This document shows, in pieces, positions 30,662 through 64,000 of a stretch of DNA of 64,000 bases. This DNA comes from a virus. Taxonomy: Duplodnaviria > Heunggongvirae > Uroviricota > Caudoviricetes. The notes below the pieces were generated by a model. It had not been told where the DNA came from. It made no database searches and saw only the letters and a list, made by a program, of their open reading frames with translations. The stretch lies in the IMG/VR virus record IMGVR_UViG_2579778660_000001; one strand, written 5' to 3'. Position 1 is the first letter of the stretch. Every line of letters starts with the position of its first letter. A program made the position numbers and the translations under genes.

Positions 30662-31567
30662 ATGAGATCAGTCGCTTTCAAAAATATCTTCATCTATCGT
30701 CTTTCACGCGAAGTTAACTGGGATACCGCAGAAGTAAATGCAGCCCTTAGCAAGTTTGTGTTTACCCCATGCGGTTCTCAGGATATGGCTAAAGCTGGTT
30801 GGACCCCAATTCTTGGCGACAACCTCACCCATGAATACCAGGGTTTTCTTCTGATGCAGCATAAACGAGAGGAAAAAATCCTGCCTTCTCAAGTACTCAA
30901 AGAAGAGTTACAGAAAAAAATCCTGAAACTTGAAGAAGAGCAAGACAGAAAGCTGAAGAAGACCGAAAAAGATTCGCTGAAGGATGAAGTGCTTCACTCT
31001 CTTCTTCCTCGCGCTTTCACGAGAAAATCAGTCGCTAAAATCCTGATAGACCGAAGCAATCATCTGGTTTTTGTCGAGGCCAGCAGTGCTAAAAAAGCAG
31101 AGGATCAGCTGGCTTTGTTACGGAAATCGCTTGGCAGCTTGCCCGTTGTCCCCTTCTCTCCGAAAGACCCATTAGAACTGACCATCACTGGCTGGATTAA
31201 AGATGGCTTCCCGAACGGTTTCCGTGCTGGTGAGGAAGCGACTTTAAAAGCATTGCTTGATGATGGCGGCGCGGTCCGCTGCAAAAAAGTGGACCTGCTA
31301 TCCGACGAGATCATGAGTCATATAGAAGCTGGTAAGGTTGCAACCACAGTTGCGGTTAACTGGCAAGACCGTGCATTTTTCAGACTGAATGACGATATGA
31401 GTATCAAGGCTTTGTCGTTCAGCGACGAATTGTACGACCAAAACGACGATATTGATCGAGAGGATGTAGCGCAACGATTTGACGCTGACTTTATCCTGTT
31501 TACTGCTGAATTATCAGCCATGTTCACTTCGCTAGTGGAGGCCGTTGGTGGTGAAGCAGAACGTTAA
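30662..31567 (+). CDS. rdgC: RdgC-family recombination-associated protein (divergent from host copy)
   Basis: 301 aa; [66 protein letters not shown]. Confidence 0.75.
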
Positions 31568-33839
31568 CCTTAGATATGGTTCTGTTTGCAGTGGAATTGA
31601 AGCAGCGAGCATTGCCTGGGAACCGTTGGGTATGCGTCCGGCGTGGTTTGCTGAAATCGAGCCTTTTCCATCTGCCGTTCTTGCGCACCGCTGGCCCCAT
31701 GTCGCCAACCTTGGCGATATGACAAAACTTGCCAAAAAAGTCCTGGCTGGGGAAATCGAATCCCCTGATGTGCTCGTCGGGGGAACACCTTGTCAGGCAT
31801 TCAGTATCGCGGGATTACGTGGTGGGCTTGATGATGAGCGTGGCGCGCTAACTTTAAAGTATGTGGAGCTTGCAAATGCAATTGACGACAAACGGGCTGA
31901 GTCATTTCTCAAACCAGCCGTTATCGTCTGGGAAAATGTCCCAGGAGTCTTGTCATCGGCAGATAACGCCTTCGGATGTTTCCTTGCCGGATTGGCTGGA
32001 GAAGATGCGCCATTCGAACCAGGTGCTCGACCTGAATCACGAAAAAGTAACGCGTTCTGGCGGTGGGATGTCAAAACCAGTTGCCATGCTCCAAAGTGGC
32101 CGCAGTGTGGTTGTATTTATGGACCGCAGCGAAAAGTGGCCTGGAGAATCCTTGATGCCCAATACTTCGGAGTGGCACAACGACGCCGACGCGTGTTTGT
32201 TGTCGCAAGTGCTCGAACAGACCTCGATCCCGCAACGATACTTTTTGAGTTCGAAGGCGTGCGCCGGAATATTGCGCCGAGCCGAAAAAAGAAGGAAATC
32301 GCTTCCGCCATTATTGCAAATGGCGCTGCAATCAGTGGCGAAAGTCTAAATCCATGCCTACACGCTGACATGCCCCCCGGTATGAAATCGACGAAAGCCG
32401 TAAACGCTTTCAGGATGGCGGCATTTGGGGAATATATTGACGATGAAACCGCATCGACAGTAAAGGCAAGAGACTTTAAAGATGCCACTGACCTTGCCGT
32501 TTTTAGCAGCACAGGAGCAGGTTTTTGGTCAGAGGGGCATGGTACATTGCGGGCGCGTGAGCAAGAAAGCCATGAGCATCTTGTTACATTAGCTTTTCCT
32601 GAGCATATGAGCGGTACACAACATGCTGCAACTAAGAATACTTCACCATCTCTAATGGCTCAAAATCCAACAGCCGTTTGCTATGAAGCAAGAAACGCAA
32701 AAGTAGCTGTTCGCCGTCTTACCCCTGTCGAATGTGAAAGGCTGCAAGGTTTTCCTGATGGGCATACGTTGATCCCTACGGAAAAGCGTAAAACAATTTC
32801 CTCAGATGAACTGGCATACCTTCGCAATCACTATCCAGATTTAAGCGAAGAAGAGGCCGCGATGCTCGCTGCTGACGGGCCGCGTTACAAAGCGATTGGC
32901 AACAGCATGGCAGTTCCTGTTATGCAATGGATTGGGTGTTGCATTCTTGCGACTGTGGAAGCTAAACAGCCAAAAACAATAAATACCATTACCTACACAA
33001 GAATACTCCGGACTCCGGATGAATATGAGCGTCCGATCTTCAAATGGGTAGGAGGTAAATTCTCAGAGTTACCTACAGTGCTTGAGCATCTACCACACGG
33101 CAAGCGGTTAATAGAACCATTCGTTGGTGGCGGTTCCGTATTTACGAATGCAGGATTTCGCCACAACCTGCTTAATGATATTAACGGTGACCTGATTAAC
33201 TTCTATCAGACATTGCAGCGAGAAGGACATTCGCTCGTCACGCTGTCATATAGTTTTTTCCAAAATTACAACAACGCTGACGCTTACCTCGAAGTGCGTG
33301 AGGCATTTAACAGAGGAAAGTATGACCAGCTACATCATGCTGCCGCCTTTTTGTACCTTAATCGGCACTGTTTTAATGGCGTAACGCGGTACAACCAAAA
33401 TGGCGAGTTCAACGTGGGGTATGGCAAATACAAAGCGCCCTACTTCCCACATGCAGAGATGGAGGCATTTTTGGCTGATGACGTACTCAAAAACACGTCC
33501 TTTGTATCAGGTGACTTTGCTGGCGTCATCGAGGCGGCTGGTGAAGGCGATGTGATTTTTTGCGATCCGCCGTATGAACCGCTGCCGGATACAGAAGGGT
33601 TTACCAGTTATTCAGGAAATAGCTTCCGTTTCGACGAACAGAAACGGCTGGTATCTCTATTGGTGGAAGCCCACCAGCGCGGCGCTAAGGTAGTGATTAC
33701 AAATAGTGGTGCGCCAAACATCCGTGAACTATATGAAGGAAACGGGTTTAAAGTACATCATATGGCAGCCAGACGGTCGGTTTCCTGCAAGGCGTCAACA
33801 CGTGTAGTTGCTAACGATATAATTGCAATAATGAAGTAA
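31548..33839 (+). CDS. dmt: bifunctional DNA methyltransferase (N-terminal C5-cytosine MTase + C-terminal Dam-like N6-adenine MTase), P1 Dmt-like
   Basis: [12 protein letters not shown] and ENV in N-half; Dam-like [14 protein letters not shown] and DPPY in C-half; GTG start after GGAGG. Confidence 0.85.
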
Positions 33840-33887: not shown

Positions 33888-35549
33888 TTAACCTAACTTC
33901 GCCCAGGTATCACGCAGCCCAACGGTGCGGTTAAATACCGGTTTTTCCGCCGTAGAATGGCGGCTGTCGAGGCAGAAATAACCTTCACGCTCAAACTGGA
34001 ATGCTTTACCAGCTACCGCTTCTTTCAGCGACGGTTCAGCAAAGCCCTGTTTGATCACCAGCGATTCCGGGTTAATCACCGACAGAAAATCATCCGCAGC
34101 ACCTGGGTTCGGTACACTGAACAGACGGTCGTACAGGCGAATTTCAACCGGCAGCGCATGGGCCGCGCTTACCCAGTGGATAACGCCTTTCACTTTACGA
34201 CCATCTGCCGGATCTTTGCTTAAAGTATCGGCATCGTAGGTACAGAAGATGGTGGTGATATTGCCTTCGGCATCTTTCTCCACGCGTTCAGCCTTAATGA
34301 CGTAAGCATTACGCAGACGCACTTCTTTACCCAGCACCAGACGTTTGTACTGCTTGTTAGCTTCTTCGCGGAAATCGGCGCGGTCGATCCAAATCTCACC
34401 GCTAAACGGCACCTGACGGCTACCCATTTCCGGTTTGTTCGGATGGTTCGGCATGGTGACCATTTCGCCTTCGCCCTGGTAGTTTTCGATAACCAGTTTC
34501 ACCGGATCGATAACCGCCATTGCGCGCGGCGCATTTTCGTTGAGATCTTCACGGATGCAGGATTCCAGCGACGCCATCTCAATGGTGTTGTCCTGCTTGG
34601 TCACGCCGATGCGTTTGCAGAACTCACGAATAGAAGCCGCAGTGTAACCACGACGACGCAGACCGGAAATGGTCGGCATACGCGGGTCATCCCAGCCTTC
34701 AACGTGCTTGTCGGTCACCAGCAGGTTCAGCTTACGCTTGGACATCACAGTGTATTCCAGATTCAGGCGCGAGAATTCGTACTGGCGCGGGTGAACAGGA
34801 ATGGTGATGTTGTCCAGCACCCAGTCGTACAGGCGACGGTTGTCCTGGAACTCAAGCGTACACAGAGAGTGCGTAATACCTTCCAGCGCATCGCTGATGC
34901 AGTGGGTGAAGTCGTACATCGGGTAGATGCACCACTTGTTGCCAGTCTGGTGGTGTTCAGCAAACTTAATGCGGTACAGCACCGGATCGCGCATCACGAT
35001 AAACGGCGACGCCATGTCGATTTTCGCACGCAGGCAGGCTTTACCTTCTTCAAAACCACCGGCACGCATTTTTTCGAACAGCGCCAGGTTCTCTTCAACG
35101 CTGCGATCGCGGTACGGGCTGTTTTTACCCGGCTGCGTCAGGGTGCCGCGGTATTCGCGGATCTGTTCCGGCGTCAGTTCGTCAACATACGCCAGGCCTT
35201 TGTTGATCAGTTCAACAGCATAGGCGTGGAGCTGATCAAAATAATCGGAGGAGTAACGGACGTTACCAGACCAGTGAAAACCTAACCATTCAACGTCGTT
35301 TTTAATCGACTCGACGTACTCGATATCTTCTTTTACCGGGTTAGTGTCGTCGAAACGCAGGTTGCACTGGCCTTTATAGTCCTGGGCGATCCCGAAGTTC
35401 AGGCAGATAGATTTCGCATGACCAATATGCAGATAGCCATTCGGTTCCGGCGGGAAACGGGTATGTACTGTGGTGTGCTTACCACTTGCCAGATCTTCAT
35501 CGATGATCTGACGAATAAAGTTAGTCGGGCGGGCTTCTGCCTCACTCAT
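33888..35549 (-). CDS. glnS: glutaminyl-tRNA synthetase, host-type
   Basis: 553 aa; essentially E. coli GlnS as recalled ([20 protein letters not shown]..., HIGH, VMSKR); higher GC than flanks. Confidence 0.9.
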
Positions 35550-48583: not shown

Positions 48584-48878
48584 TGAGGGCATTTTTTACA
48601 TCATCAATCCATCAGCAATGAAGGCATTCTTTACATATTTCAATAATATCAATCAGTTAACACAGTGAATGATAATAAAAAAGCGCAATAAGAATGCACG
48701 ATACGCACGATATTGGTTGAGGGCGATTTTTACATAATCCTTACATATCAATATGTTATATAAAAACACAACTTGCTAATAACGAGATACATGCAATTAA
48801 GATGTAAAAATTGCCCTCAATTGCCGATCGTTAAGGGCAAATTCTACACCTTGAGAGGGGTGTAAAAATTGCCCTTAA
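48584..48878. repeat. iteron cluster downstream of repA (incA-like), both orientations
   Basis: TGAGGGC-N-TTTTTACA copies at 48584, 48717, inverted 48801; near-perfect 20+20 bp inverted pair 48832-48878 overlapping repA stop. Confidence 0.6.
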
Positions 48879-49630
48879 GACTGCTGATAGGTAAATTTTA
48901 TCCTGGTAACTTTGCCGCCTTCCGTCACCTCTGAGAAGACTATTTTCATTTTTGTATTTTTTTCAATCTCTGCTACAGCCTTCGTTAAAAAACTTCTCTT
49001 AAATTCGGCATACCGCTGATAACTTTTTGGTAACCCATAACGCTCCCGCATCCATTCGACGCCAAGTATGGCAAAGCCGCTTCCATCATCCTTCCTGTAC
49101 TGGCATAAGGACTCATAAAGCCGCATAGAATAAGGATTTGTAAGGCGAGATACTTCGGTAAAATTCAGCCTTGTGAATCTCTTATCAAGCAGAGTAAAAA
49201 ACGGCATGAGATATGGATTAAGATGAATAATGTAAGTCCCGCGCCGTGGTGAATAGGCATCCTTAATCATCCAGGGATAAGACTCATAACTGTCTTCTGA
49301 TTCGGTCGATTCATCAGGGTTATATATCGTAACTTTCTTCTCGCTAAGACCTGAAATGGCCTTACGAATATCCTTGCTGGCTTCAGCAGAGGGCAAATTA
49401 TACATCTCTGCATATTCGTTGACCGTCAACTCACAGGCACCTGAACCAAGAACGCCATCCTTAGAAGCATAGCGAAGTCTTCCCACCACAATAAACAACA
49501 GTCGCTTTTGGTCGCGAGTCAGGTGATAAGCAGCCTCCGTGATCTCATTGGCTTGTGCCAGACTACGACTAATAGGTGTCGCTGACTCAATCAGGCTGAC
49601 GGCTTTTGCTGTTAATTCCGCTCTGTTCAT
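48875..49630 (-). CDS. repA: RepA iteron-binding replication initiator
   Basis: Iterons on both sides; ATG at 49630 (MNRAELTAK...); track start 49663 is a TTG inside iteron 1. Confidence 0.8.
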   Translation of the reverse strand: MNRAELTAKAVSLIESATPISRSLAQANEITEAAYHLTRDQKRLLFIVVGRLRYASKDGVLGSGACELTVNEYAEMYNLPSAEASKDIRKAISGLSEKKVTIYNPDESTESEDSYESYPWMIKDAYSPRRGTYIIHLNPYLMPFFTLLDKRFTRLNFTEVSRLTNPYSMRLYESLCQYRKDDGSGFAILGVEWMRERYGLPKSYQRYAEFKRSFLTKAVAEIEKNTKMKIVFSEVTEGGKVTRIKFTYQQS

Positions 49631-49654: not shown

Positions 49655-49772
49655 TGAGGGCAATTTTTACACCACTTTGAGGGCAATTACTACACCTTTT
49701 GAGGGCAAATCTTACACCTTCTGAGGGCAAATCTTACACCGATCGTATTTAATTGAGGGCAAATCTTACACC
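49655..49772. repeat. origin iterons, 5 direct repeats TGAGGGCAA(A/T)TNTTACACC
   Basis: Copies at 49655, 49678, 49700, 49722, 49754 (22-23 bp phasing); inverted degenerate copy at 49895-49914. Confidence 0.75.
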
Positions 49773-50894: not shown

Positions 50895-53800
50895 ATGGCG
50901 AGCACTCCATATGTCAAAAGCCCTGGAAGAAAAATACAAAGCTCAAGCCGGGAAACGTTGATCGCCGCTGGCAAAAGAGAGGTTATTTTGAAAGAGAATA
51001 AAGACCGTATCGCAATAATTGACGCTATTCAGGGGGCGAGCACAAACGAACTTAACGCTCTTGCTGAGATCAAAGACGCCATTCTCTCTGGTAGAGGGTC
51101 TATAACTCAACTTGGTGAAAATCAAGGTAAAGTAAGTCAAAGACTATCCCGTAGACTCATAGCAAGCGAACCCTATGTCTCTGATGATGCCAAGAATACC
51201 CAAGCTAACCCATATATAAAACGCCTTCCGATGAAAAAAGGGAGGACGCAGATCAACAACGGAGAAGAACGTCTCATTGTTGCAACCAACACATCAGAGC
51301 GCGTTCATTTTTCGTCATCACGCCAATCCGCCCAAAAGTTGAAAGGTTCTGTGCCAGTAGCCGCTAATTCTGCTCCTCTTGAACCACAATCCCCCCAAAG
51401 CCAAAAAGGACCGCTTCGGGATAGTAACGGACGCTTTGTATCCCAGAAAAACAACGAAGATATAGCCAGAAAAAAAGAATGGCAGAAAGCACGTAAGGCT
51501 GACGCCAAACTACAAGAAGGCTTCCTCCGAAAATTAGGCTCCATTATAGGGGTAGATGGCAATCAGTCTTCCAGTGAAGAGTCTTTAACAGATGCCGCAG
51601 GTGTTGGCGCTGGTGGTCCGTTGTGGATGGCTGCTCGCGGCATGTACGACATTACTAAAGAGATCACAGGTAAAGCAGTATCTCTTAAAGAATGGGTAGA
51701 AAAGGGGAAAGGTGAGGCTTCACCTTCGAAAGCGACATCTCCAGCTATCGCTTATCCGGCGGTGGTGAACACTCAAAAAGCAACCTCTGCAACAGCATTT
51801 AATAATGCTGTTGAGACAAAATCAGCACAAGCAGTAGAAGAGCAAACAAAAATTCTTCAGACCAATGACAACAAAATCATTGATGGTCTGGAAAATGTCT
51901 CCGACGAAGTAGTTAAGCTACGCAAATCAGTATCTTCTGGGAATAAGTTCGGCTTAAGTGATCTCTGGAAAAATCGAGCAAGCAGAAGAAATAAAATCAA
52001 TATTGGCGATCAGGCTGGTAAAAATAAACGGAACAAACCGAAAAGGAAAGGTCGCAATCTGGGGAAAAAAGCCCTTTCTGTTGGTGAAAAAGCCGCTGCC
52101 GGAACCGCTGCTGCTGGAGCTGGTGCCGTAGCTGCAAAGACTGTTAAAACAAAGGTTAGTAAAGCCAAAGACATCAGCACCACAAGCGACGCATCTAAGG
52201 GTATTGCTAAAGAAACAAAAAACACAACAAAGGCAGTTAAGTCAGCAGGTGTTGTTGCCGAAGAGGCCACAATTAAAACAGGTGAAACTGTTGCAAAGAA
52301 AAAAACCGAATCCTTAGCACTCAAAAGTGCTGCAAAAATAGGTGTTAAATCAGCTGCTTCTACAGCTGCAAGAGCTATCCCGATCATCGGCTCAGTGGCT
52401 ATGGCGGGATATGACGCTATAGATGGTTACACTGATACAGATGCGCAAAAGGCAGCCTTTGGATTAAGTGACGATGATGCTGTATCCGAACAGCAAAAAA
52501 CGGCTTACGCAACAGCTAATGTGCTCGATATGGGGGGCTTGGTGTCGGGCGCAACTAACTTGATAGGGAAAGGAATTTCTGCGCTAGGATTTGAAAGAGC
52601 AGGTGAAAAACTTCAGGATTTTGATACCGGAGATATTGCTCGTGGTGTTAACGGCGCGGTAGATATCACCAAATCTGTTTTTGGTAGCCTTAAGGATACA
52701 TTTTTATCCACTGACGAAAACACGAAACAAGTAAAAAAAGCTGTTGAAGACGGCACCAAAAAAACTGTCGATGCGATTCATTCTCTAGGTGAACAATTAC
52801 AAGGTGGGCGTAATGGCGAGGATGGAGTTGGTGAGCACGGGTATACTTCTCCAACTGAATTTAGTGCACCTGCCAACAACACCATTGCAGCGGATCTGAA
52901 TATTGGCGGCAGCAACGCTAAAAACCGCAATTACCGAAATAATAATCTCGGCAATCTTGTTTTTGCCAACCAGGAAGGGGCGACACTGGAATCGCCAAAT
53001 GCAAAAGGTGAACAACGTTTTGCGCGATTTAACACACCTGAAGAAGGGATCAGGGCACTGGCAAACCAGGTTTCCAGCTATTACAACGGCACCAGTGCCG
53101 CAGCGGGATATCAGAAGTTGCAGACGGTATCCAGCATCATTTCAAAATGGGCACCGCCAAATGAAAACAATACTAACCAATATATTGATAACGTCAGTAA
53201 ATATCTTGGTGTATCGCCTAATGAAAAAATAGATGTCAGCAAACCAGAGGTTATGACGCAATTAGTTCGTGCAATTGCGACGAAAGAAGGCGGAAATCCG
53301 GCAGTTAATAATGAGTTCATTAAGAACGCACTTGGAGCATTTAACACAAACACTGGTCGATGGGAGGGACAATTCTCTGACGAAACATTGGCGCGGATTA
53401 ATAAAATTCAGAAAGAAAATGGTGGTCAGCTAATTGCCCGCGATTCGCAATATAGTGTTGGTCGCAAGGTAAAATATGCTAATGGAAAATCTCCAGCTCA
53501 ACCAGTTTTGAATGCCGTTCCGACAGCAACACAACAGCCAATTGAGGTTGCACAACATGCCCAGGCAGTCAAAAAGCCACAAAAAACAGGTAACCAACCA
53601 CAACCGATTAATCCAGAGAACGCTGATGTTAATACCGGCTCTCCATCGAGTTTGCTTGAGCGGTTAATCGCAATAAATGAAAGCGGAATCAGTGGTGCAA
53701 GTAATTTATTTGGCGGCGCGGCTACCAGCCTTGCTGGAACAAGTCTGGATCTGGTAAAGGATTTTGCGTTGGCTACTTCGTTTGGTTCTATATCTTCGCT

Positions 53801-55100
53801 TTCCGAAAAAGCGAAAGGAATGGATCAGGCTCTTACTGAAAAGATATCCGGCTTAACCGGTAAATCTTTTGGATTTAAAAAAGCTTCTCAAGTGGCTGAT
53901 ATCGCAACAGCCATACAACAAAAACGCACTGTTAATCACGATACAGAAATCATTGATCTACTTCCGGGAGATCAAGTATCCCCTTTTACTCCGAAAACCC
54001 CACAGCAGGAGCAGGCTATAGCAATCAGCCAGGCTATGGCGGGCTTTTCGTCTGCAGCGCCAGCACCGAAAACCCCACAGCAGGAGCAGGCTATAGCAAT
54101 CAGCCAGGCTATGGAGGGCTTTTCGTCTGTAGCGCCAGCACCGAAAACCCCACAGCAGGAGCTGGCTCTAGCAATCAACCAGGCTATGGCGGGCTTTTCG
54201 TCTGCAGCGCCAGCACCGAAAACCCCACAGCAGGAGCAGGCTATAGCAATCAGCCAGGCTATGGAGGGCTTTTCGTCTGCAGCACCAGCACCGAAAACCC
54301 CACAGCAGGAGCAGGCTCTAGCAATCAACCAGGCTATGGCGGGCTTTTCATCTGCAGCACCAGCACCGAAAACCCCACAGCAGGAGCAGGCTCTAGCAAT
54401 CAACCAGGCTATGGCGGGAGCTGCGCCAGTAGTTACCTCTGGAAAACGAACTGTCACGGCACCAAGTGATGTGCAGATTTATGACAACGGCTACAAGGTG
54501 GTTACAGGTGAGGATAAGAGCTTCTTTGGTTCGCTATTTGATTCCACGGTGTCAGGGCTTAAACAGGCAGCAACCGCAGTAATTCCTGCCGTTGGCGATA
54601 ACCTTTCACGACTTGTTGGGGGGATTGATAGTACAGGGATATTGAACGATCTTGTAATGCAGTCTACTGGGCAGAATAGTGCGATTGCGCGAGCTATTAG
54701 CCCATTAACAAGAAATGTTGGAGACTGGCTGAATGGGGGGATTCAACAAACCGCTAATAGCATTAGGGGAATAGCAACTGGTGCCAATAACGCCATATTT
54801 GGCTCTGCTTCAGCTGTGCAAGAACCTTTTCTTGCTATGCCGCCACAACTCCCTACTGTAACCGATCTCGCACGAAGCGGAATAAGACAACCATTAACTA
54901 CTGACACTATAAATAACGATCCTGCTATGTTGAAGGCGCTGGATAACATCTGCTCTATCCTGAACGATCTGCTGAATGTGAACAAGAACAATACAAAAGG
55001 CGATCCGGATAATGTTGTCAAAACATCGCAGCCGCAGCCGCGACCACGTGCGAGCGCAACTATTAATGACCAGTCGCTGGATGCTCTGCTTGAGGATTAA
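50895..55100 (+). CDS. giant Sit/tape-measure-like protein with internal tandem repeats
   Basis: 1401 aa; Ala/Gly/Lys-rich helical N-part; central conserved region (NRNYRNNNLGNL...ATKEGGNP); six 25-aa repeats. Confidence 0.7.
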   Translation: MASTPYVKSPGRKIQSSSRETLIAAGKREVILKENKDRIAIIDAIQGASTNELNALAEIKDAILSGRGSITQLGENQGKVSQRLSRRLIASEPYVSDDAKNTQANPYIKRLPMKKGRTQINNGEERLIVATNTSERVHFSSSRQSAQKLKGSVPVAANSAPLEPQSPQSQKGPLRDSNGRFVSQKNNEDIARKKEWQKARKADAKLQEGFLRKLGSIIGVDGNQSSSEESLTDAAGVGAGGPLWMAARGMYDITKEITGKAVSLKEWVEKGKGEASPSKATSPAIAYPAVVNTQKATSATAFNNAVETKSAQAVEEQTKILQTNDNKIIDGLENVSDEVVKLRKSVSSGNKFGLSDLWKNRASRRNKINIGDQAGKNKRNKPKRKGRNLGKKALSVGEKAAAGTAAAGAGAVAAKTVKTKVSKAKDISTTSDASKGIAKETKNTTKAVKSAGVVAEEATIKTGETVAKKKTESLALKSAAKIGVKSAASTAARAIPIIGSVAMAGYDAIDGYTDTDAQKAAFGLSDDDAVSEQQKTAYATANVLDMGGLVSGATNLIGKGISALGFERAGEKLQDFDTGDIARGVNGAVDITKSVFGSLKDTFLSTDENTKQVKKAVEDGTKKTVDAIHSLGEQLQGGRNGEDGVGEHGYTSPTEFSAPANNTIAADLNIGGSNAKNRNYRNNNLGNLVFANQEGATLESPNAKGEQRFARFNTPEEGIRALANQVSSYYNGTSAAAGYQKLQTVSSIISKWAPPNENNTNQYIDNVSKYLGVSPNEKIDVSKPEVMTQLVRAIATKEGGNPAVNNEFIKNALGAFNTNTGRWEGQFSDETLARINKIQKENGGQLIARDSQYSVGRKVKYANGKSPAQPVLNAVPTATQQPIEVAQHAQAVKKPQKTGNQPQPINPENADVNTGSPSSLLERLIAINESGISGASNLFGGAATSLAGTSLDLVKDFALATSFGSISSLSEKAKGMDQALTEKISGLTGKSFGFKKASQVADIATAIQQKRTVNHDTEIIDLLPGDQVSPFTPKTPQQEQAIAISQAMAGFSSAAPAPKTPQQEQAIAISQAMEGFSSVAPAPKTPQQELALAINQAMAGFSSAAPAPKTPQQEQAIAISQAMEGFSSAAPAPKTPQQEQALAINQAMAGFSSAAPAPKTPQQEQALAINQAMAGAAPVVTSGKRTVTAPSDVQIYDNGYKVVTGEDKSFFGSLFDSTVSGLKQAATAVIPAVGDNLSRLVGGIDSTGILNDLVMQSTGQNSAIARAISPLTRNVGDWLNGGIQQTANSIRGIATGANNAIFGSASAVQEPFLAMPPQLPTVTDLARSGIRQPLTTDTINNDPAMLKALDNICSILNDLLNVNKNNTKGDPDNVVKTSQPQPRPRASATINDQSLDALLED
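53991..54425 (+). repeat. 75-bp tandem repeat, about 5.8 copies, in frame
   Basis: Unit CCGAAAACCCCACAGCAGGAGCAGGCT...; encodes PKTPQQEQAIAISQAMAGFSSAAPA. Confidence 0.85.
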
Positions 55101-57857: not shown

Positions 57858-58304
57858 ATGGCTGAAAATTTAAAGGTAAGAGATGGTAACCGCCTGTATA
57901 AGGCGCAATTGCTTTCCTACTATTATTCACGCCGCGCTGAGTCGGCGATCGGCAAAGGTGCGCGTTTTGTTATCTCTAAGGCGTATTGGTGCAAATCTAG
58001 TCTGGTAACTGCTAATGGTGCAGGAGGCTGGAATATAGCGGACATTCCACTCAATTTTAAATTGAGTAACGCTCAACAGTTTGCTGTGTCCGATCTGATA
58101 TTGTCCAGTGTGGATGGGATTATCACTATCAATGCAGCCTTCCCTCAAGAAAGAATGCCGGAGAACACGCCTTACGCCTTTAACACGCTTGTGCTTGTTG
58201 ATGCTGAGGAACAGGCTTTTGCTGTGCTTTGCACCCAGCAAGACACCCTCTATAAAGGTAAACGTTACAGTATTCTCATGACAATCGAGCAAGTTGAGGG
58301 TTGA
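57858..58304 (+). CDS. hypothetical virion protein (148 aa)
   Basis: Precedes fibre gene; GGGG RBS. Confidence 0.45.
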   Translation: MAENLKVRDGNRLYKAQLLSYYYSRRAESAIGKGARFVISKAYWCKSSLVTANGAGGWNIADIPLNFKLSNAQQFAVSDLILSSVDGIITINAAFPQERMPENTPYAFNTLVLVDAEEQAFAVLCTQQDTLYKGKRYSILMTIEQVEG

Positions 58305-58306
58305 TT

Positions 58307-61300
58307 ATGGGTGCTGATAAAACGAACAACATAATGACACTATCCTCTGGTGTCTCACAGCCGTTGCTTGCTGATGTTCAATATTTCGAACTCTATAGTA
58401 GTTCTGCTCTTAACAGAAAACTTAAAAATATTGTTTTGCCGGGCTTTTACTGTGGATTTGAACCAGTTCCCGGCACAGGGTTGAGCGTCCGTATAACTTC
58501 TGAAAACTCAGAAGGTAAAGGGGCTGCTTCAGTAGATGTAAATAATGTTCAGATATCCATTCAGCAAATAGAAGATGTGACTGTCTCGGTAAAGGCTGGG
58601 GCTACCAACATTATTGTGCTGGAAGCCAATTTTGAACATGGTGTAAAAACGACACAGGTAGAGAGCGCATCTTCTGTCAGTGCTGCAAGAATTTACGCGC
58701 GTAGGGACAATACTATTGGGCAGAATCAAATTGAATTATGTCGAGTTATCGTGCCTAGCGGCGCAACGGCTGTGACTAAAGAAATGATTGTGCTTAAATA
58801 CCGAGTTAACCGTGCTGTTGGTGTCGAATTCTCTAATGAAATAAGCAGTACAGAAGAAAGAAAAGCGGCTACACCTCTGGCTGTCAAAACTCTTCATGAT
58901 TTGGTTGATACAAAAGCTCCGCTCAATAGTCCGCATCTGTCAGGTACGCCGACAGTGCCTACGGCCTCACAAGGCACAAATAGCACGCAGATCGCAAATA
59001 CAGCCTTTGTTAAGGCAGCTATAACGGCACTTATCAACGGTGCACCTGGCACACTGGATACGCTTAAAGAAATAGCGGCTGCGATCAATAACGACCCGAA
59101 TTTCAGCACAACTATCAACAATGCTCTGGCTCTTAAAGCTCCTTTGGCAAGCCCGGCGTTCACCGGTACGCCGACAGTGCCTACGGCCTCACAAGGCACA
59201 AATAGCACGCAGATTGCAAATACAGCCTTTGTTAAGGCAGCTATAACGGCACTTATCAACGGTGCACCTGGCACACTGGATACGCTTAAAGAAATAGCGG
59301 CTGCGATCAATAACGACCCGAATTTCAGCACAACTATCAACAATGCTCTGGCTCTTAAAGCTCCTTTGGCAAGCCCGGCGTTCACCGGTACGCCGACAGT
59401 GCCTACGGCCTCACAAGGCACAAATAGCACGCAGATTGCAAATACAGCCTTTGTTAAGGCAGCTATAACGGCACTTATCAACGGTGCACCTGGCACACTG
59501 GATACGCTTAAAGAAATAGCGGCTGCGATCAATAACGACCCGAATTTCAGCAAAACTATCAACAATGCTCTGGCTCTTAAAGCTCCTTTAGCAAGTCCTG
59601 CATTAACGGGAATACCTACTGCGCCTACCGCTGCACAGGGTACGAATAACACGCAGATTGCTACGACCGCTTATGTAAGAGCTGCTATCTCTGCATTGGT
59701 CGGCTCATCACCTGAAGCTCTTGATACCCTGAATGAGCTTGCAGCAGCACTGGGCAATGACCCGAACTTTGCGACAACAATGACAAATGCGCTGGCAGGC
59801 AAACAGCCACTTGATGCAACTTTAACCGCGCTTGCTGGGCTTGCGACAGGCGCAAATAAATTGCCGTACTTTACCGGTACAGACACTGTTTCCCAGACTG
59901 ATTTAACGTCAGTCGGTCGCGATATCCTGGCTAAAACAAGCACACTGGCTGTTATCCAATACCTTGGTTTAAGAGAAATCGGAACCAGCGGCGAAAAGAT
60001 CCCCCTGTTGAGCACAGCTAATACCTGGAGTTCTCAACAGACTTTCAAAGGTAAGACAGCGTTTTCAGCCGCTGCTACATTCAGTGCCGGGATAGCAGGA
60101 GCCATCGATCCGGAAGACATTGGCGGCCAGACGGTTGATCTTAACAACCTGACCATCATCTCAGATGTCGGGGCAATTAAATATTATTGTTGTCCAACCT
60201 TTGGAGGTGGTGCAAATATCACCAACAAGCCTGACGGTGTAACCGGTAACTTTTTGCTCCGTGTAGAGTCGACTCGCAAAGTTTCTGCTTCGGATTATGC
60301 GAACATGCAAACGCTGATCAGCAACGACACAAAACGTATATACGTTCGCTTTGTTGTTAATGGAAGCTGGGCAGCGTGGAGTCAGGTTGTTGTTTCCGGA
60401 TGGGGTCAGGATGTAAGTGTTAAGTCTCTTCGTGCCGTGGCTCTTAGTGGATCTTTGACAGGTAATGCATCCACCGCCACAAAACTGCAAACAGCACGCA
60501 CAATCGGCGGAGTGTCGTTCGATGGTAGTGCCAATATCGACCTGCCGGGCGTGAATAAAGCAGGTAATCAGAGCACTACCGGCAATGCTGCAACCGCTAC
60601 GAAACTGCAAACAGCACGCACAATAGGTGGAGTGTCATTCGATGGTAGTGCCAATATCGACCTGCCGGGCGTGAATAAAGCAGGTAATCAGAGCACTACC
60701 GGTAATGCTGCAACCGCTACAAAACTGCAAACAGCCCGCACAATCAACGGTGTTAAGTTTGATGGTTCTGCGAACATTTCGATACCAACAATCACGTCCA
60801 GAGGGCGTGTTACTGCGCTCACCGATACAACACAAGGTGCTGCTACTGGATTGCAGATGTATGAGGCGTACAACAATAGCTACCCGACCGCGTATGGCAA
60901 CGTATTGCACATGAAAGGTGCGAGTGCTGCTGGTGAGGGCGAGTTGCTTATTGGCTGGAGTGGTACGAGCGGTGCACATGCGCCGGTTTTCATTCGCTCC
61001 CGAAGAGATTACGCTGATGCGGCATGGTCAGCGTGGGCGCAGGTATATACATCAAGGGACTCCATTCCTGGTGTGAATGCCACTGGCAATCAGAATACAA
61101 CTGGCAATGCAGCAACTGCTACAAAACTACAGACGGCAAGAACTATCGGCGGAGTTAGCTTTGATGGTACTGCGAATATTAATTTACCTGGTGTTAACGT
61201 TGCGGGTAATCAGAATACATCCGGTAACGCGGCTACAGCGACCAAGTTACAAACCGCGAGAACTATAAATGGGGTGTCGTTTGACGGTTCTAAAAACATT

Positions 61301-64000
61301 GAGCTAACTCCAAGGTCTATAGGCACGATCAACTCAACAACAATGTCTTTTAGTGGTGGTGCTGGATGGTTCAAGCTGGCAACTGTAACCATGCCACAGG
61401 CCAGTTCTATGGTTTACATAAGCCTGATTGGTGGTGCTGGATATAATGTTAACTCCCCTATGCAGGCTGGTATATCTGAACTTGTTCTTCGTGCGGGAAA
61501 TGGGAATCCAAAAGGTCTTACCGGTGCGTTATGGCGACGGACATCGGTTGGATTTACTAATTTTGCATGGGTGAATACATCCGGTGATACCTATGATGTT
61601 TATGTTGAAATAGGTAATTACGCCACGGGTGTAAATATCCAGTGGGATTATACCAGGAACGCCAGCGTAACGATTCATACATCACCATCTTATACAGCGG
61701 ATAAACCAACAGGCCTGACAGATGGAACTGTATATGTCATTTACAGTTCGCACATTAAACCGACCGCCACGGATGTCGGCGCATTCCCAATAACCGGAGG
61801 AAATCTCAAAGGCGGTTTAACGGCTACTGGTGAGATCATTTCAAAATCGGCGAATGGTCAGCGCATTGCCTACGGAAACTACGGATTCTTTATCCGAAAC
61901 GATGGTTCACACACATTTTTCATGTTGACCGATTCGGGTAACAGCCTGGGAACCTATAATAATTTAAGGCCGCTTATTATTAACAACGCCAATGGTACTG
62001 TTACGATCGGTAATGGACTCAATGTTACTGGCGGCATCAATGGTAGTTTGAACGGTAATGCTGCAACTGCAACAAAACTGCAAACAGCACGCACAATCGG
62101 CGGAGTGTCATTCGATGGTAGTGCCAATATCGACCTGCCGGGCGTGAATAAAGCAGGTAATCAGAGCACTACCGGCAATGCTGCAACCGCTACGAAACTG
62201 CAAACAGCACGCACAATAGGTGGAGTGTCATTCGATGGTAGTGCCAATATCGACCTGCCGGGCGTGAATAAAGCAGGTAATCAGAGCACTACCGGTAATG
62301 CCGCAACCGCAACGAAACTACAGACTGCACGCACAATCGGCGGCGTGTCGTTCGATGGTAGTGCCAATATCGACCTGCCGGGCGTGAATAAAGCAGGTAA
62401 TCAGAGCACTACCGGCAATGCTGCAACCGCAACAAAACTGCAAACAGCACGCACAATAGGCGGAGTGTCATTCGATGGTAGTGCCAATATCGACCTGCCG
62501 GGCGTGAATAAAGCAGGTAATCAGAGCACTACCGGTAATGCTGCAACCGCTACAAAACTGCAAACAGCCCGCACAATCAACGGTGTTAAGTTTGATGGTT
62601 CTGCGAACATTTCGATACCAACAATCACGTCCAGAGGGCGTGTTACTGCGCTCACCGATACAACACAAGGTGCTGCTACTGGATTGCAGATGTATGAGGC
62701 GTACAACAATAGCTACCCGACCGCGTATGGCAACGTATTGCACATGAAAGGTGCGAGTGCTGCTGGTGAGGGCGAGTTGCTTATTGGCTGGAGTGGTACG
62801 AGCGGTGCACATGCGCCGGTTTTCATTCGCTCCCGAAGAGATTACGCTGATGCGGCATGGTCAGCGTGGGCGCAGGTATATACATCAAGGGACTCCATTC
62901 CTGGTGTGAATGCCACTGGCAATCAGAATACAACTGGCAATGCAGCAACTGCTACAAAACTACAGACGGCAAGAACTATCGGCGGAGTTAGCTTTGATGG
63001 TACTGCGAATATTAATTTACCTGGTGTTAACGTTGCGGGTAATCAGAATACATCCGGTAACGCGGCTACAGCGACCAAGTTACAAACCGCGAGAACTATA
63101 AATGGGGTGTCGTTTGACGGTTCTAAAAACATTGAGCTAACTCCAAGGTCTATAGGCACGATCAACTCAACAACAATGTCTTTTAGTGGTGGTGCTGGAT
63201 GGTTCAAGCTGGCAACTGTAACCATGCCACAGGCCAGTTCTATGGTTTACATAAGCCTGATTGGTGGTGCTGGATATAATGTTAACTCCCCTATGCAGGC
63301 TGGTATATCTGAACTTGTTCTTCGTGCGGGAAATGGGAATCCAAAAGGTCTTACCGGTGCGTTATGGCGACGGACATCGGTTGGATTTACTAATTTTGCA
63401 TGGGTGAATACATCCGGTGATACCTATGATGTTTATGTTGAAATAGGTAATTACGCCACGGGTGTAAATATCCAGTGGGATTATACCAGGAACGCCAGCG
63501 TAACGATTCATACATCACCATCTTATACAGCGGATAAACCAACAGGCCTGACAGATGGAACTGTATATGTCATTTACAGTTCGCACATTAAACCGACCGC
63601 CACGGATGTCGGCGCATTCCCAATAACCGGAGGAAATCTCAAAGGCGGTTTAACGGCTACTGGTGAGATCATTTCAAAATCGGCGAATGGTCAGCGCATT
63701 GCCTACGGAAACTACGGATTCTTTATCCGAAACGATGGTTCACACACATTTTTCATGTTGACCGATTCGGGTAACAGCCTGGGAACCTATAATAATTTAA
63801 GGCCGCTTATTATTAACAACGCCAATGGTACTGTTACGATCGGTAATGGACTCAATGTTACTGGCGGCATCAATGGTAGTTTGAACGGTAATGCTGCAAC
63901 TGCAACAAAACTGCAAACAGCACGCACAATCGGCGGAGTGTCATTCGATGGTAGTGCCAATATCGACCTGCCGGGCGTGAATAAAGCAGGTAATCAGAGC
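58307..64000 (+). CDS. tail fibre protein, 3'-truncated by window edge (at least 1898 codons)
   Basis: ATG at 58307 after GAGGG; first ~600 codons checked stop-free by hand, rest inferred from in-frame repeat translation; phage tail fibre repeat motifs; absent from ORF track because no stop in window. Confidence 0.8.
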   Translation, partial: MGADKTNNIMTLSSGVSQPLLADVQYFELYSSSALNRKLKNIVLPGFYCGFEPVPGTGLSVRITSENSEGKGAASVDVNNVQISIQQIEDVTVSVKAGATNIIVLEANFEHGVKTTQVESASSVSAARIYARRDNTIGQNQIELCRVIVPSGATAVTKEMIVLKYRVNRAVGVEFSNEISSTEERKAATPLAVKTLHDLVDTKAPLNSPHLSGTPTVPTASQGTNSTQIANTAFVKAAITALINGAPGTLDTLKEIAAAINNDPNFSTTINNALALKAPLASPAFTGTPTVPTASQGTNSTQIANTAFVKAAITALINGAPGTLDTLKEIAAAINNDPNFSTTINNALALKAPLASPAFTGTPTVPTASQGTNSTQIANTAFVKAAITALINGAPGTLDTLKEIAAAINNDPNFSKTINNALALKAPLASPALTGIPTAPTAAQGTNNTQIATTAYVRAAISALVGSSPEALDTLNELAAALGNDPNFATTMTNALAGKQPLDATLTALAGLATGANKLPYFTGTDTVSQTDLTSVGRDILAKTSTLAVIQYLGLREIGTSGEKIPLLSTANTWSSQQTFKGKTAFSAAATFSAGIAGAIDPEDIGGQTVDLNNLTIISDVGAIKYYCCPTFGGGANITNKPDGVTGNFLLRVESTRKVSASDYANMQTLISNDTKRIYVRFVVNGSWAAWSQVVVSGWGQDVSVKSLRAVALSGSLTGNASTATKLQTARTIGGVSFDGSANIDLPGVNKAGNQSTTGNAATATKLQTARTIGGVSFDGSANIDLPGVNKAGNQSTTGNAATATKLQTARTINGVKFDGSANISIPTITSRGRVTALTDTTQGAATGLQMYEAYNNSYPTAYGNVLHMKGASAAGEGELLIGWSGTSGAHAPVFIRSRRDYADAAWSAWAQVYTSRDSIPGVNATGNQNTTGNAATATKLQTARTIGGVSFDGTANINLPGVNVAGNQNTSGNAATATKLQTARTINGVSFDGSKNIELTPRSIGTINSTTMSFSGGAGWFKLATVTMPQASSMVYISLIGGAGYNVNSPMQAGISELVLRAGNGNPKGLTGALWRRTSVGFTNFAWVNTSGDTYDVYVEIGNYATGVNIQWDYTRNASVTIHTSPSYTADKPTGLTDGTVYVIYSSHIKPTATDVGAFPITGGNLKGGLTATGEIISKSANGQRIAYGNYGFFIRNDGSHTFFMLTDSGNSLGTYNNLRPLIINNANGTVTIGNGLNVTGGINGSLNGNAATATKLQTARTIGGVSFDGSANIDLPGVNKAGNQSTTGNAATATKLQTARTIGGVSFDGSANIDLPGVNKAGNQSTTGNAATATKLQTARTIGGVSFDGSANIDLPGVNKAGNQSTTGNAATATKLQTARTIGGVSFDGSANIDLPGVNKAGNQSTTGNAATATKLQTARTINGVKFDGSANISIPTITSRGRVTALTDTTQGAATGLQMYEAYNNSYPTAYGNVLHMKGASAAGEGELLIGWSGTSGAHAPVFIRSRRDYADAAWSAWAQVYTSRDSIPGVNATGNQNTTGNAATATKLQTARTIGGVSFDGTANINLPGVNVAGNQNTSGNAATATKLQTARTINGVSFDGSKNIELTPRSIGTINSTTMSFSGGAGWFKLATVTMPQASSMVYISLIGGAGYNVNSPMQAGISELVLRAGNGNPKGLTGALWRRTSVGFTNFAWVNTSGDTYDVYVEIGNYATGVNIQWDYTRNASVTIHTSPSYTADKPTGLTDGTVYVIYSSHIKPTATDVGAFPITGGNLKGGLTATGEIISKSANGQRIAYGNYGFFIRNDGSHTFFMLTDSGNSLGTYNNLRPLIINNANGTVTIGNGLNVTGGINGSLNGNAATATKLQTARTIGGVSFDGSANIDLPGVNKAGNQS
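58943..59608 (+). repeat. 3 near-identical tandem copies of a 222-bp (74-aa) unit inside tail fibre gene
   Basis: Unit starts GGTACGCCGACAGTGCCTACGGCC at 58943, 59165, 59387; a diverged 4th copy follows. Confidence 0.85.
60461..64000 (+). repeat. 1833-bp tandem duplication containing 120-bp sub-repeats, inside tail fibre gene
   Basis: 60635-60979 = 62468-62812 and 62054-62167 = 63887-64000 (offset 1833); 120-bp units at 60461, 60581, 62054, 62174, 62294, 62414. Confidence 0.85.

What the first reader, a model, noticed from the sequence alone, without database searches (positions are those of the whole stretch)
60461..64000. 1833-bp in-frame tandem duplication inside the tail-fibre gene
Segments offset by exactly 1833 bp are identical (60635-60979 vs 62468-62812; 62054-62167 vs 63887-64000), and the junction contains four consecutive 120-bp sub-repeats encoding GNAATATKLQTARTIGGVSFDGSANIDLPGVNKAGNQSTT. 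Recombination between sub-repeats would generate copy-number variation in the fibre, but an assembly artefact is also possible; the gene runs off the window.
Basis: seen in the sequence. Interest (0 to 1): 0.5.

Follow-up and report, generated by a model that had tools for sequence, protein, structure and literature searches.

The report
Tail-fibre duplication is probably assembly artefact
The repeated 1,833-base stretch is really in the deposited sequence, but it lies at the end of a short-read contig of a circular phage-plasmid whose end repeats its own start, so the doubled tail-fibre segment is most likely an assembly product rather than biology.

Summary
Positions 60629-62167 and 62462-64000 are identical (1,539 nt), the offset of 1,833 nt is in frame, and four full 120-nt units sit at the junction.

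The window is the last 64 kb of contig JJMD01000056.1 (E. coli 1-182-04_S1_C1; 100-nt reads, MaSuRCA). Position 64000 is the contig end. The gene is tail-fibre gene S of a D6/P1-like plasmid prophage.

The contig head begins with the same module. It then continues into the true 3' end of S: a glycine-rich domain, a stop codon, and a fibre-assembly gene. The last 1,528 nt of the contig equal its first 1,528 nt. The contig is therefore a circle written with redundant ends, and it holds the module three times.

Only a 360-nt stretch of near-identical units (62171-62530) separates the two tail copies. The order of those units conflicts with two sibling colonies from the same stool. One sibling reads straight through a single module. 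The closest closed plasmid (CP181648.1) and all other assemblies I examined also have one module.

I put an assembly artefact at about 0.8 and a real recent duplication at about 0.15-0.2. Unit-number variation and module loss at these repeats are real among relatives. Interest is low.

The parts
57858..58304 (+). Gene R (P1 tail-fibre structure protein, 148 aa), immediately upstream of S
   Evidence: ORF. Pfam PF26881 Phage_P1_tail_fiber_R on the identical protein.
58307..64000 (+). Tail-fibre gene S: 1,898 codons, cut by the contig end. The remaining codons are at the head of the same contig.
   Evidence: Open frame. P1/P7/D6 gene S similarity. NCBI name 'putative s protein, partial', EZK32501.1. 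3' end at contig positions 2-2509.
58943..59661 (+). 222-nt (74-aa) tandem repeat, 3.2 copies, inside the P1-like constant part of S
   Evidence: Matches P1 'repeated element b1/b2' annotation. Relatives have 1-3 copies.
59959..59970 (+). cix-like core ATACCTTGGTTT (encodes YLGL). It is probably a relic recombination site, because this plasmid has no invertase gene after S.
   Evidence: P1 homology with the cixR annotation ends near 60051. No resolvase gene downstream of S at the contig head.
60458..60697 (+). First array: two full 120-nt units (t01, t02)
   Evidence: Unit typing. The same two units occur in siblings C2 and C3 and in closed plasmid CP181648.1.
60698..62170 (+). Module copy 1, made of opening degenerate unit t03, a knob-like segment, internal units t04 and t05, a segment with the Gp34_trimer domain, and closing unit t06
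   Evidence: Pfam PF21446. PDB matches 5yvq (Mu S) and 4uxe (T4 gp34). PHROGs tail-fibre families. This 1,473-nt block is 100% identical in siblings C2 and C3.
62171..62530 (+). The only sequence separating the two copies: units t02, t07, t08. The crossing t06->t02 (62110-62176) and unit t08 (62411-62530) are found in no other assembly examined.
   Evidence: At columns 18/21/24/51, t08 reads C/A/A/C against t02 C/T/G/T and t08' T/A/A/C.
62531..64000 (+). Module copy 2 (t03 ... t06, cut at column 117 of t06 by the contig end)
   Evidence: Identical to 60698-62167.
62473..64000 (+). Terminal redundancy: identical to the first 1,528 nt of the same contig
   Evidence: longest suffix equal to a prefix is 1,528 nt. 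Contig head is L029.
60640..62175 (+). Copy 1 also equals contig positions 1-1536. After that point the head continues with t07 and the window continues with t02.

Best explanation
The window is the tail of a linear short-read contig that represents a circular D6/P1-like plasmid prophage of about 91 kb. Its tail-fibre gene S contains a 1.35-kb shaft module, made of a knob-like segment plus a T4-gp34-type trimerisation domain. Arrays of 120-nt units flank the module on both sides. The last 60 nt of every full unit are invariant, and among units that follow another unit the first 5 nt are also invariant.

With 100-nt reads this invariant core acts as a hub that the assembler cannot thread reliably. 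The contig starts in the core just before the module and ends in the core just after it. The module is written three times:
- once at the contig head, where it runs on into the true 3' end of S (t06-t07-t08'-tX, glycine-rich receptor-binding domain, stop, fibre-assembly gene);

At least one of the three copies is plain wrap-around redundancy of a circle; this is shown. I infer that the other extra copy is also not physical. On this reading the tail segment t02-t07-t08-t03-module-t06 is a second rendering of the upstream array and module. Sibling colony C3 assembled that region as t02-t07-t02-t03-module. In C1 the segment was glued through the invariant core onto the end of the first rendering. 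The real gene would then have one module and encode about 1,613 aa.

The biology underneath is ordinary for this family. Homologous recombination and slippage between the 120-nt units change unit number and can delete the module.
For: Source and method:
- The window is the last 64,000 nt of JJMD01000056.1 (94,580 nt), E. coli 1-182-04_S1_C1.
- Sequencing was HiSeq 100-nt reads, assembled with MaSuRCA 2.3.2. Three colonies came from one stool sample, all ST23/B1/O8:H9.

Contig anatomy:
- The contig head is core-t03-module-t06-t07-t08'-tX-Gly_rich_2-stop, followed by Caudo_TAP.
- The last 1,528 nt of the contig equal the first 1,528 nt. Copy 1 equals the head for 1,536 nt.
- Both C1 and C3 contigs end at the same column of the unit...AATCAGAGC.
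- The invariant core spans columns 61-120. A 183-nt exact repeat is shared by the first and junction arrays, which is longer than a read.

Siblings:
- C2 reads t01 t02 t03-module-t06 t07 t08' tX into the C-terminal domain, with one module.
- C3 reads t01 t02 t07 t02 t03-module-t06 t07 t08', with one module.
- The 5' part of S and the module are 100% identical in all three, yet the three arrays are mutually incompatible.

Relatives:
- Closed plasmid CP181648.1 (99.3-99.8% identical) has the same unit types and one module: t01 t02 t03-M-t06 t07 t07 tX.
- All other assemblies fetched that carry the module have it once.
- The best 120 of 1,284 homologous proteins are at most 1,556 aa, and none has two full modules.
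- No record among 5,426 complete E. coli genomes or 72,556 plasmids holds the module-end to module-start junction in one colinear piece.
- Assemblers commonly break here: other drafts carry the module on 1.6-2.7-kb contigs or have N-gaps in the arrays.
Against: - Read at face value, the contig is a self-consistent 93,052-bp circle with two modules and a clean suffix-equals-prefix overlap. This needs no assembler error in C1.
- A single-copy truth requires the assembler to have made a join through the core alone (t06->t02) and to have produced unit t08, a mosaic that cannot arise from shared k-mers.
- The adjacency t02->t07 occurs in both the C1 and C3 contigs. The true arrays in this clone are therefore probably more complex than sibling C2's version.
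- The siblings are not physically identical. C2 carries a 19.5-kb deletion with 2-nt microhomology, so real differences in the arrays cannot be excluded.
- My account of how MaSuRCA produced the tail is inference. No reads or coverage were available.
Confidence: 0.8

Rival explanations
1. The duplication is real and recent. Unequal homologous recombination between the downstream and upstream arrays of 120-nt units on sister plasmid copies duplicated one 1,833-nt period in frame. The result is a 93,052-bp plasmid whose S gene encodes a 2,224-aa fibre with two knob-plus-Gp34-trimer modules. The contig is then a correct linearisation with a 1,528-nt terminal overlap, and the sibling assemblies collapsed the repeat.
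For: - The suffix-equals-prefix overlap closes the contig into a coherent two-copy circle.
- Every unit adjacency in the C1 contig would then be genuine, including t06->t02 and t08->t03, which are hard to obtain from a single-copy template.
- A deletion product that such recombination can also give exists in nature: L019 has S of 969 aa with t01 t02 tX and no module.
- Module shuffling occurs in the family: P0094 has two diverged knob sub-modules and P0099 has reordered modules.
- Collapse of perfect tandem repeats is the usual short-read outcome, which would explain C2 and C3.
Against: - No two-module gene was found in any closed plasmid, complete genome, or top-scoring homolog.
- The junction array t06 t02 t07 t08 t03 cannot be produced by a single crossover between the parental arrays t06 t07 t08' tX and t01 t02 t03. 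At least two or three events are needed.
- C3 has t02 where C1 has t08, a difference at 3 columns, so one of the two assemblies is wrong in any case.
- The two copies show zero divergence, and a 1.5-kb perfect tandem repeat is unstable in RecA+ cells (general knowledge).
- 100-nt reads cannot span the repeat.
Confidence: 0.17
2. The culture or clone is a mixed population. Plasmid molecules with different upstream arrays (2 versus 4 full units) coexisted, and the assembler strung the two alleles one after the other.
For: - C2 and C1 show a 2-unit upstream array, and C3 shows a 4-unit one.
- The C1 tail matches the C3 upstream path t02 t07 (t02/t08) t03.
- Siblings differ physically elsewhere: a 19.5-kb deletion in C2, and a Sit protein of 1,401 versus 1,451 aa.
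Against: - Each genome came from a single purified colony.
- P1-like plasmids are low-copy (general knowledge).
- There is no direct evidence of heteroplasmy.
- With respect to the duplication, this hypothesis is still an artefact.
Confidence: 0.03

Closest known systems
Tail-fibre gene S of phage P1 / P7 / D6 and D6-like plasmid prophages
   Same: - Gene order gp16-R-S followed by a fibre-assembly chaperone.
- The N-terminal constant part is 82-90% identical in DNA to P1/D6 S, including the b1/b2 74-aa repeats.
- The backbone is a RepB-iteron plasmid with glnS, as in D6-like elements (PMC6799933).
   Different: - This plasmid has the long variant with the knob/Gp34-trimer module and a glycine-rich C-terminal domain.
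- It has no Cin invertase or alternative Sv' cassettes after S.
- P1 itself lacks the module. P1 homology stops near 60051.
T4 gp34 proximal long-tail-fibre subunit and phage Mu fibre S (PDB 4uxe/5nxf, 5yvq)
   Same: Module residues about 445-533 match the Gp34 C-terminal trimerisation domain. Pfam PF21446 scores 7.8e-52 over the two copies. PDB matches are 5yvq at 1.8e-28 and 4uxe at 1e-18.
   Different: Only this roughly 90-aa domain is shared. The 40-aa units and the knob segment have no solved homolog by sequence.
Terminal redundancy and loop over-traversal in short-read assemblies of circular replicons
   Same: - The contig end equals the contig start (1,528 nt).
- Both ends lie at repeat-core boundaries.
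- The repeats are longer than the reads.
- Sibling assemblies disagree with each other.
   Different: The redundancy is not a simple wrap-around. A further 1,833-nt period lies between the first return to the module and the contig end.
Mosaic, repeat-mediated evolution of phage tail fibres (P1/p15B/Mu/P2/T-even; Sandmeier, Haggard-Ljungquist and others; cited from memory, not read here)
   Same: Short conserved motifs inside fibre genes serve as recombination points. Here, unit number and module content vary between plasmids that are about 99% identical.
   Different: Nothing new is added to that picture.

Membership tests
P1/D6-type tail-fibre gene S | Lies directly downstream of gp16 and R in the baseplate/tail-fibre operon | tested here: met
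   PF26903 and PF26881 on the two upstream genes.
P1/D6-type tail-fibre gene S | N-terminal constant part homologous to P1 Sc, including the b1/b2 repeats | tested here: met
   Megablast to P1, P7 and D6 at 82-90% identity over 58898-60051, with Sc and b1/b2 annotation.
P1/D6-type tail-fibre gene S | Followed by a tail-fibre assembly (U / Caudo_TAP) gene | tested here: met
   Contig head 2509-2919 matches PF02413 at 7.6e-22.
P1/D6-type tail-fibre gene S | C-terminal part carried on a Cin-invertible segment with alternative Sv'/U' cassettes (the P1, P7 and D6 arrangement) | tested here: not met
   No resolvase gene or inverted cassettes were called after S at the contig head. Only a cix-like core remains at 59959-59970. 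Relatives such as pB20159_2 do have the invertible segment.
Genuine intragenic tandem duplication | Both copies and the novel junction lie on one physical molecule, shown independently of the assembler | not testable with these tools
   No reads, coverage or long reads were available. The assembly used 100-nt reads only.
Genuine intragenic tandem duplication | Junction explicable by one unequal crossover between the flanking repeats | tested here: not met
   The junction is t06 t02 t07 t08 t03, and the parental arrays are t01 t02 t03 and t06 t07 t08' tX. No single crossover yields this order, and t08 has the wrong polarity for a crossover hybrid.
Genuine intragenic tandem duplication | Seen in clonal siblings or other isolates | tested here: not met
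   C2 and C3 have one module. The other assemblies fetched, the complete genomes and plasmids and the top homologs also show none.
Assembly redundancy of a circular replicon | Contig suffix identical to contig prefix | tested here: met
   1,528 nt are identical.
Assembly redundancy of a circular replicon | Contig ends coincide with boundaries of repeats that exceed the read length | tested here: met
   The head starts at column 63 and the tail ends at column 117 of the invariant core. There are a 183-nt exact repeat and a 1.5-kb module, against 100-nt reads.
Assembly redundancy of a circular replicon | Trimming the overlap leaves a single-copy sequence | tested here: inconclusive
   Trimming the terminal 1,528 nt still leaves two modules (93,052 bp). 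Using the internal 1,536-nt match instead gives one module (91,219 bp) and a 1,825-nt overhang.

The most novel reading that the evidence does not exclude
Isolate 1-182-04_S1_C1 really carries a freshly formed, perfect, in-frame 611-codon tandem duplication in the shaft of a D6-like tail fibre, giving a 2,224-aa protein. It would have been caught before recombination removed it, and would show fibre-length change by unequal crossover at 40-aa linker repeats happening within one child's gut E. coli population. Sibling colonies carry other array variants and a 19.5-kb deletion.
Probability: 0.17. Interest if true: 0.35.

Novelty: not a real feature. Interest (0 to 1): 0.1.

Why it matters
As a biological claim it matters little. 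Repeat-mediated length variation and mosaicism of phage tail fibres are well established, and the duplication itself is probably not physical.

The practical value is a caution. Tandem copies at the end of a draft contig from a circular phage-plasmid should be checked against the contig's own start and against sibling or closed genomes before being read as biology.

The deposited protein EZK32501.1 (1,889 aa, partial) probably misrepresents the gene. The most likely real product is about 1,613 aa.

Tried and rejected
1. Invertible-segment idea. I first thought the duplication lay inside a Cin-invertible Sv segment. The reasons were the P1 cixR homology ending near 60051, the cix-like cores found, and a relative (pB20159_2) with cin and Sv'/U' cassettes. 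The contig head shows that this plasmid has the glycine-rich C-terminus type with no invertase, so I dropped the idea.

2. Contig start estimated from pB20159_2. Colinearity with pB20159_2 suggested that the contig started about 1.3 kb past the S repeats. That was wrong, because the plasmid has a different S 3' end. The real head was obtained.

3. A two-copy structure meant to explain all three siblings with no false adjacency. I predicted that C3 would read t01 t02 t07 t08 t03. The C3 DNA reads t01 t02 t07 t02 t03, so that version fails.

4. Sequence search of the 40-aa units and knob segment against the PDB. Nothing significant was found.

5. Look-ups that failed: the exact protein P0001, a hand-built sequence, and accession NZ_CP181648.1 in the annotated collections.

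6. A tblastn search for closed plasmids carrying the P0094-type knob duplication. All records found have a single copy.

7. tRNA scan of the window: none.

Full report
**1. Checking the observation.**
An offset-1,833 comparison gives perfect identity from 60629 to 62167, which equals 62462-64000 (1,539 nt). There are 12 mismatches in 60461-60628 and background similarity before that. Repeat finders report 120-nt units at 60454-60814, 62047-62647 and from 63880. Frame 2 is open from 58298 to the window end, and 1,833 is a multiple of 3. Four full 120-nt units plus a degenerate fifth lie at the junction.

**2. What the locus is.**
- The ORF follows genes with the Pfam families Phage_P1_Gp16 and Phage_P1_tail_fiber_R.
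- Its 5' part is 82-90% identical in DNA to gene S of P1, P7 and D6, including the annotated b1/b2 repeats.
- The duplicated unit contains a Gp34_trimer domain (PF21446). It matches the solved fibres of Mu (5yvq) and T4 gp34 (4uxe) only in that domain, and it hits many PHROGs tail-fibre families.
- The backbone is a D6-like plasmid prophage. It has a Rep3/RepB gene with 22-nt iterons, glnS, a C1 repressor, and doc/phd. PMC6799933 describes glnS in all D6-like elements.

**3. Where the window comes from.**
An exact-protein look-up places the window as the last 64,000 nt of JJMD01000056.1 (94,580 nt) of GCA_000627855.1. NCBI names the organism E. coli 1-182-04_S1_C1 and the protein 'putative s protein, partial'. 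Position 64000 is therefore the contig end.

The source paper states HiSeq 2000 100-bp reads assembled with MaSuRCA 2.3.2. Up to three colonies were taken per stool sample. Table S1 lists C1, C2 and C3 of subject 1-182-04, sample S1, all ST23, phylogroup B1, O8:H9.

**4. Anatomy of the repeats.**
In all full units, columns 61-120 are invariant. Variable columns are confined to 2-60. The first array and the junction array share a 183-nt exact stretch, which is longer than a read.

The window reads:

t01 t02 t03-M-t06 t02 t07 t08 t03-M-t06|end

Here M is the 1.35-kb module, opened by degenerate unit t03 and closed by t06.

**5. Relatives.**
- pB20159_2 is 98.6% identical over 58000-62328 and has one module with an S protein of 1,556 aa.
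- The closest closed plasmid with the same unit types is CP181648.1 (91,266 bp, 99.3-99.8% identical). It reads t01 t02 t03-M-t06 t07 t07 tX, followed by a glycine-rich C-terminus.
- Among the best 120 of 1,284 homologous proteins, complete S proteins are 1,245-1,556 aa. None has two full modules.
- A query spanning module end, array and module start finds no colinear single-piece match in 5,426 complete E. coli genomes or 72,556 plasmids.
- Unit numbers vary naturally, with 1-4 full units upstream and 0-4 downstream.
- Some relatives lack the module altogether. L019 has S of 969 aa reading t01 t02 tX, and L021 and L023 have 1,100 aa.
- Many drafts break here, carrying the module on 1.6-2.7-kb contigs or having N-gaps in the arrays.

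**6. The sibling colonies.**
I recovered the DNA of both siblings.
- C2 (JMGS01000074.1) reads t01 t02 t03-M-t06 t07 t08' tX and continues into the glycine-rich domain, with one module.
- C3 (JJLX01000061.1, 8,554 nt) reads t01 t02 t07 t02 t03-M-t06 t07 t08'|end, with one module. It ends at the same column of the unit as the C1 contig.

The 5' part of S (58307-60577) and the 1,473-nt block t03..t06 are 100% identical in all three. Despite this, the three arrays are mutually incompatible. At least two of the three assemblies must be wrong in the arrays, or the arrays differ physically between colonies.

**7. The head of the same contig.**
A DdrA-like protein with accession EZK32400.1 led to contig positions 1-16983. 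The contig starts at column 63 of a unit, inside the invariant core. It then reads t03-M-t06-t07-t08'-tX, a Gly_rich_2 domain and a stop (835 codons). A Caudo_TAP gene, holin, LydB and DarA follow.

The last 1,528 nt of the contig (window 62473-64000) are identical to its first 1,528 nt. Window 60640-62175 is identical to contig positions 1-1536. The contig is thus a circular replicon written with redundant ends, and the module occurs three times in it.
- Closing on the internal match gives a 91,219-bp circle with one module and an S protein of 1,613 aa.
- Closing on the terminal overlap gives 93,052 bp with two modules and an S protein of 2,224 aa.

Only 62171-62530 (t02 t07 t08) decides between these two closures. 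The crossing t06->t02 occurs in no other assembly examined. Unit t08 is unique to this contig, reading C/A/A/C at columns 18/21/24/51 against t02 C/T/G/T and t08' T/A/A/C.

**8. Weighing the two readings.**

For an artefact:
- The reads are far shorter than the repeats.
- The second copy is the contig head.
- Siblings and all relatives have one module.
- The junction array cannot come from one crossover between the parental arrays.
- The C1 tail (t02 t07 t0x t03-M-t06) matches the way C3 assembled the upstream array. It therefore looks like a second rendering of the same locus appended through the invariant core.

For a real duplication:
- The contig is a coherent two-copy circle.
- A single-copy template does not easily yield t06->t02 or t08.
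- t02->t07 recurs in C3.
- The siblings are not physically identical, since C2 has a 19.5-kb deletion with 2-nt microhomology.
- Deletion of the module, an outcome the same kind of repeat-to-repeat recombination can give, exists in nature.

The base rate of a fixed, perfect 1.8-kb tandem duplication in a colony is low. None appears among many hundreds of closed relatives. Weighing that against a locus where this assembler demonstrably gave three different answers for one clone, I put an artefact at about 0.8 and a real duplication at about 0.17. The mechanism I propose for how MaSuRCA produced the tail is inference. No reads were available.

**9. Comparison with what is known, and novelty.**
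The gene is a member of the P1/D6 S tail-fibre family. Its position, N-terminal homology and chaperone gene all fit. The Cin-invertible arrangement is absent in this plasmid. Repeat-mediated variation of fibre genes is established knowledge. The duplication as such is best filed as not a real feature, and interest is low.

Noticed in passing
window 50895-55100 (repeat array 53991-54418): The 1,401-aa transglycosylase/Sit-like gene holds a 75-nt (25-aa) tandem repeat of 5.7 copies. The protein is 1,451 aa in sibling C2, and the C3 contig starts inside this array. Close relatives range from 1,125 to 1,601 aa. This is either real copy-number variation or a second place where assemblies are unreliable.
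   Followed up: partly
L016 5364-5365 (sibling C2) versus contig JJMD01000056.1 positions about 2106 and about 21601: Sibling colony C2 joins S (truncated at ...TPTQNS*) directly to the region upstream of the VRR-NUC gene, with only 2 nt (TA) of microhomology. About 19.5 kb is removed, including the fibre chaperone, lysis genes, DarA/DarB, portal and RepL. The contig wraps as a circle of about 72 kb. It looks like a real deletion that makes the prophage defective.
   Followed up: partly
window 59959-59970; L001 9960-9971, 12498-12509, 14422-14433, 14861-14872: In relatives with a Cin invertase, cix-like cores (ATACCTTGGTTT / AAACCAACGTTT) flank the whole module-bearing segment in direct orientation and also precede the two inverted Sv' cassettes. 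The window keeps only the first core and has no invertase. The module region may once have been a cassette bounded by recombination sites.
   Followed up: partly
L019 12831-15740; L021 12831-16133; L023 9400-12702: Close relatives have S genes of 969 and 1,100 aa with no Gp34_trimer hit. L019 lacks the module outright, reading t01 t02 tX. This is consistent with deletion by recombination between the upstream and downstream unit arrays.
   Followed up: partly
proteins P0094 and P0099: P0094 is a complete 1,467-aa S protein from a draft assembly. It has two tandem, slightly diverged copies of the knob sub-module. P0099 has the modules in a different order, with two different Gp34_trimer segments. 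No PLSDB plasmid shows the P0094 arrangement.
   Followed up: partly
window 49655-49740 and 48875-49630 (- strand): A 22-nt repeat of 3.9 copies lies next to the Rep3/RepB gene. These are presumably the plasmid iterons.
   Followed up: no
window 33888-35549 (- strand) and 31545-33839 (+ strand): A full glutaminyl-tRNA synthetase gene lies on the plasmid prophage, which is already known for D6-like elements. Next to it is a 764-aa fusion of C5-cytosine and N6-adenine methyltransferase domains, resembling P1 Dmt. The latter lies in a stretch that does not align with pB20159_2.
   Followed up: partly
L004, L007, L010 (contigs of about 4.69 Mb, GCA_0195841xx-0195850xx): The same gp16-R-S block appears on chromosome-sized records, next to Rhs, IS and housekeeping genes, and with N-gaps in the S arrays. 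This could be integration of the plasmid prophage or reference-guided scaffolding. I did not examine it.
   Followed up: no
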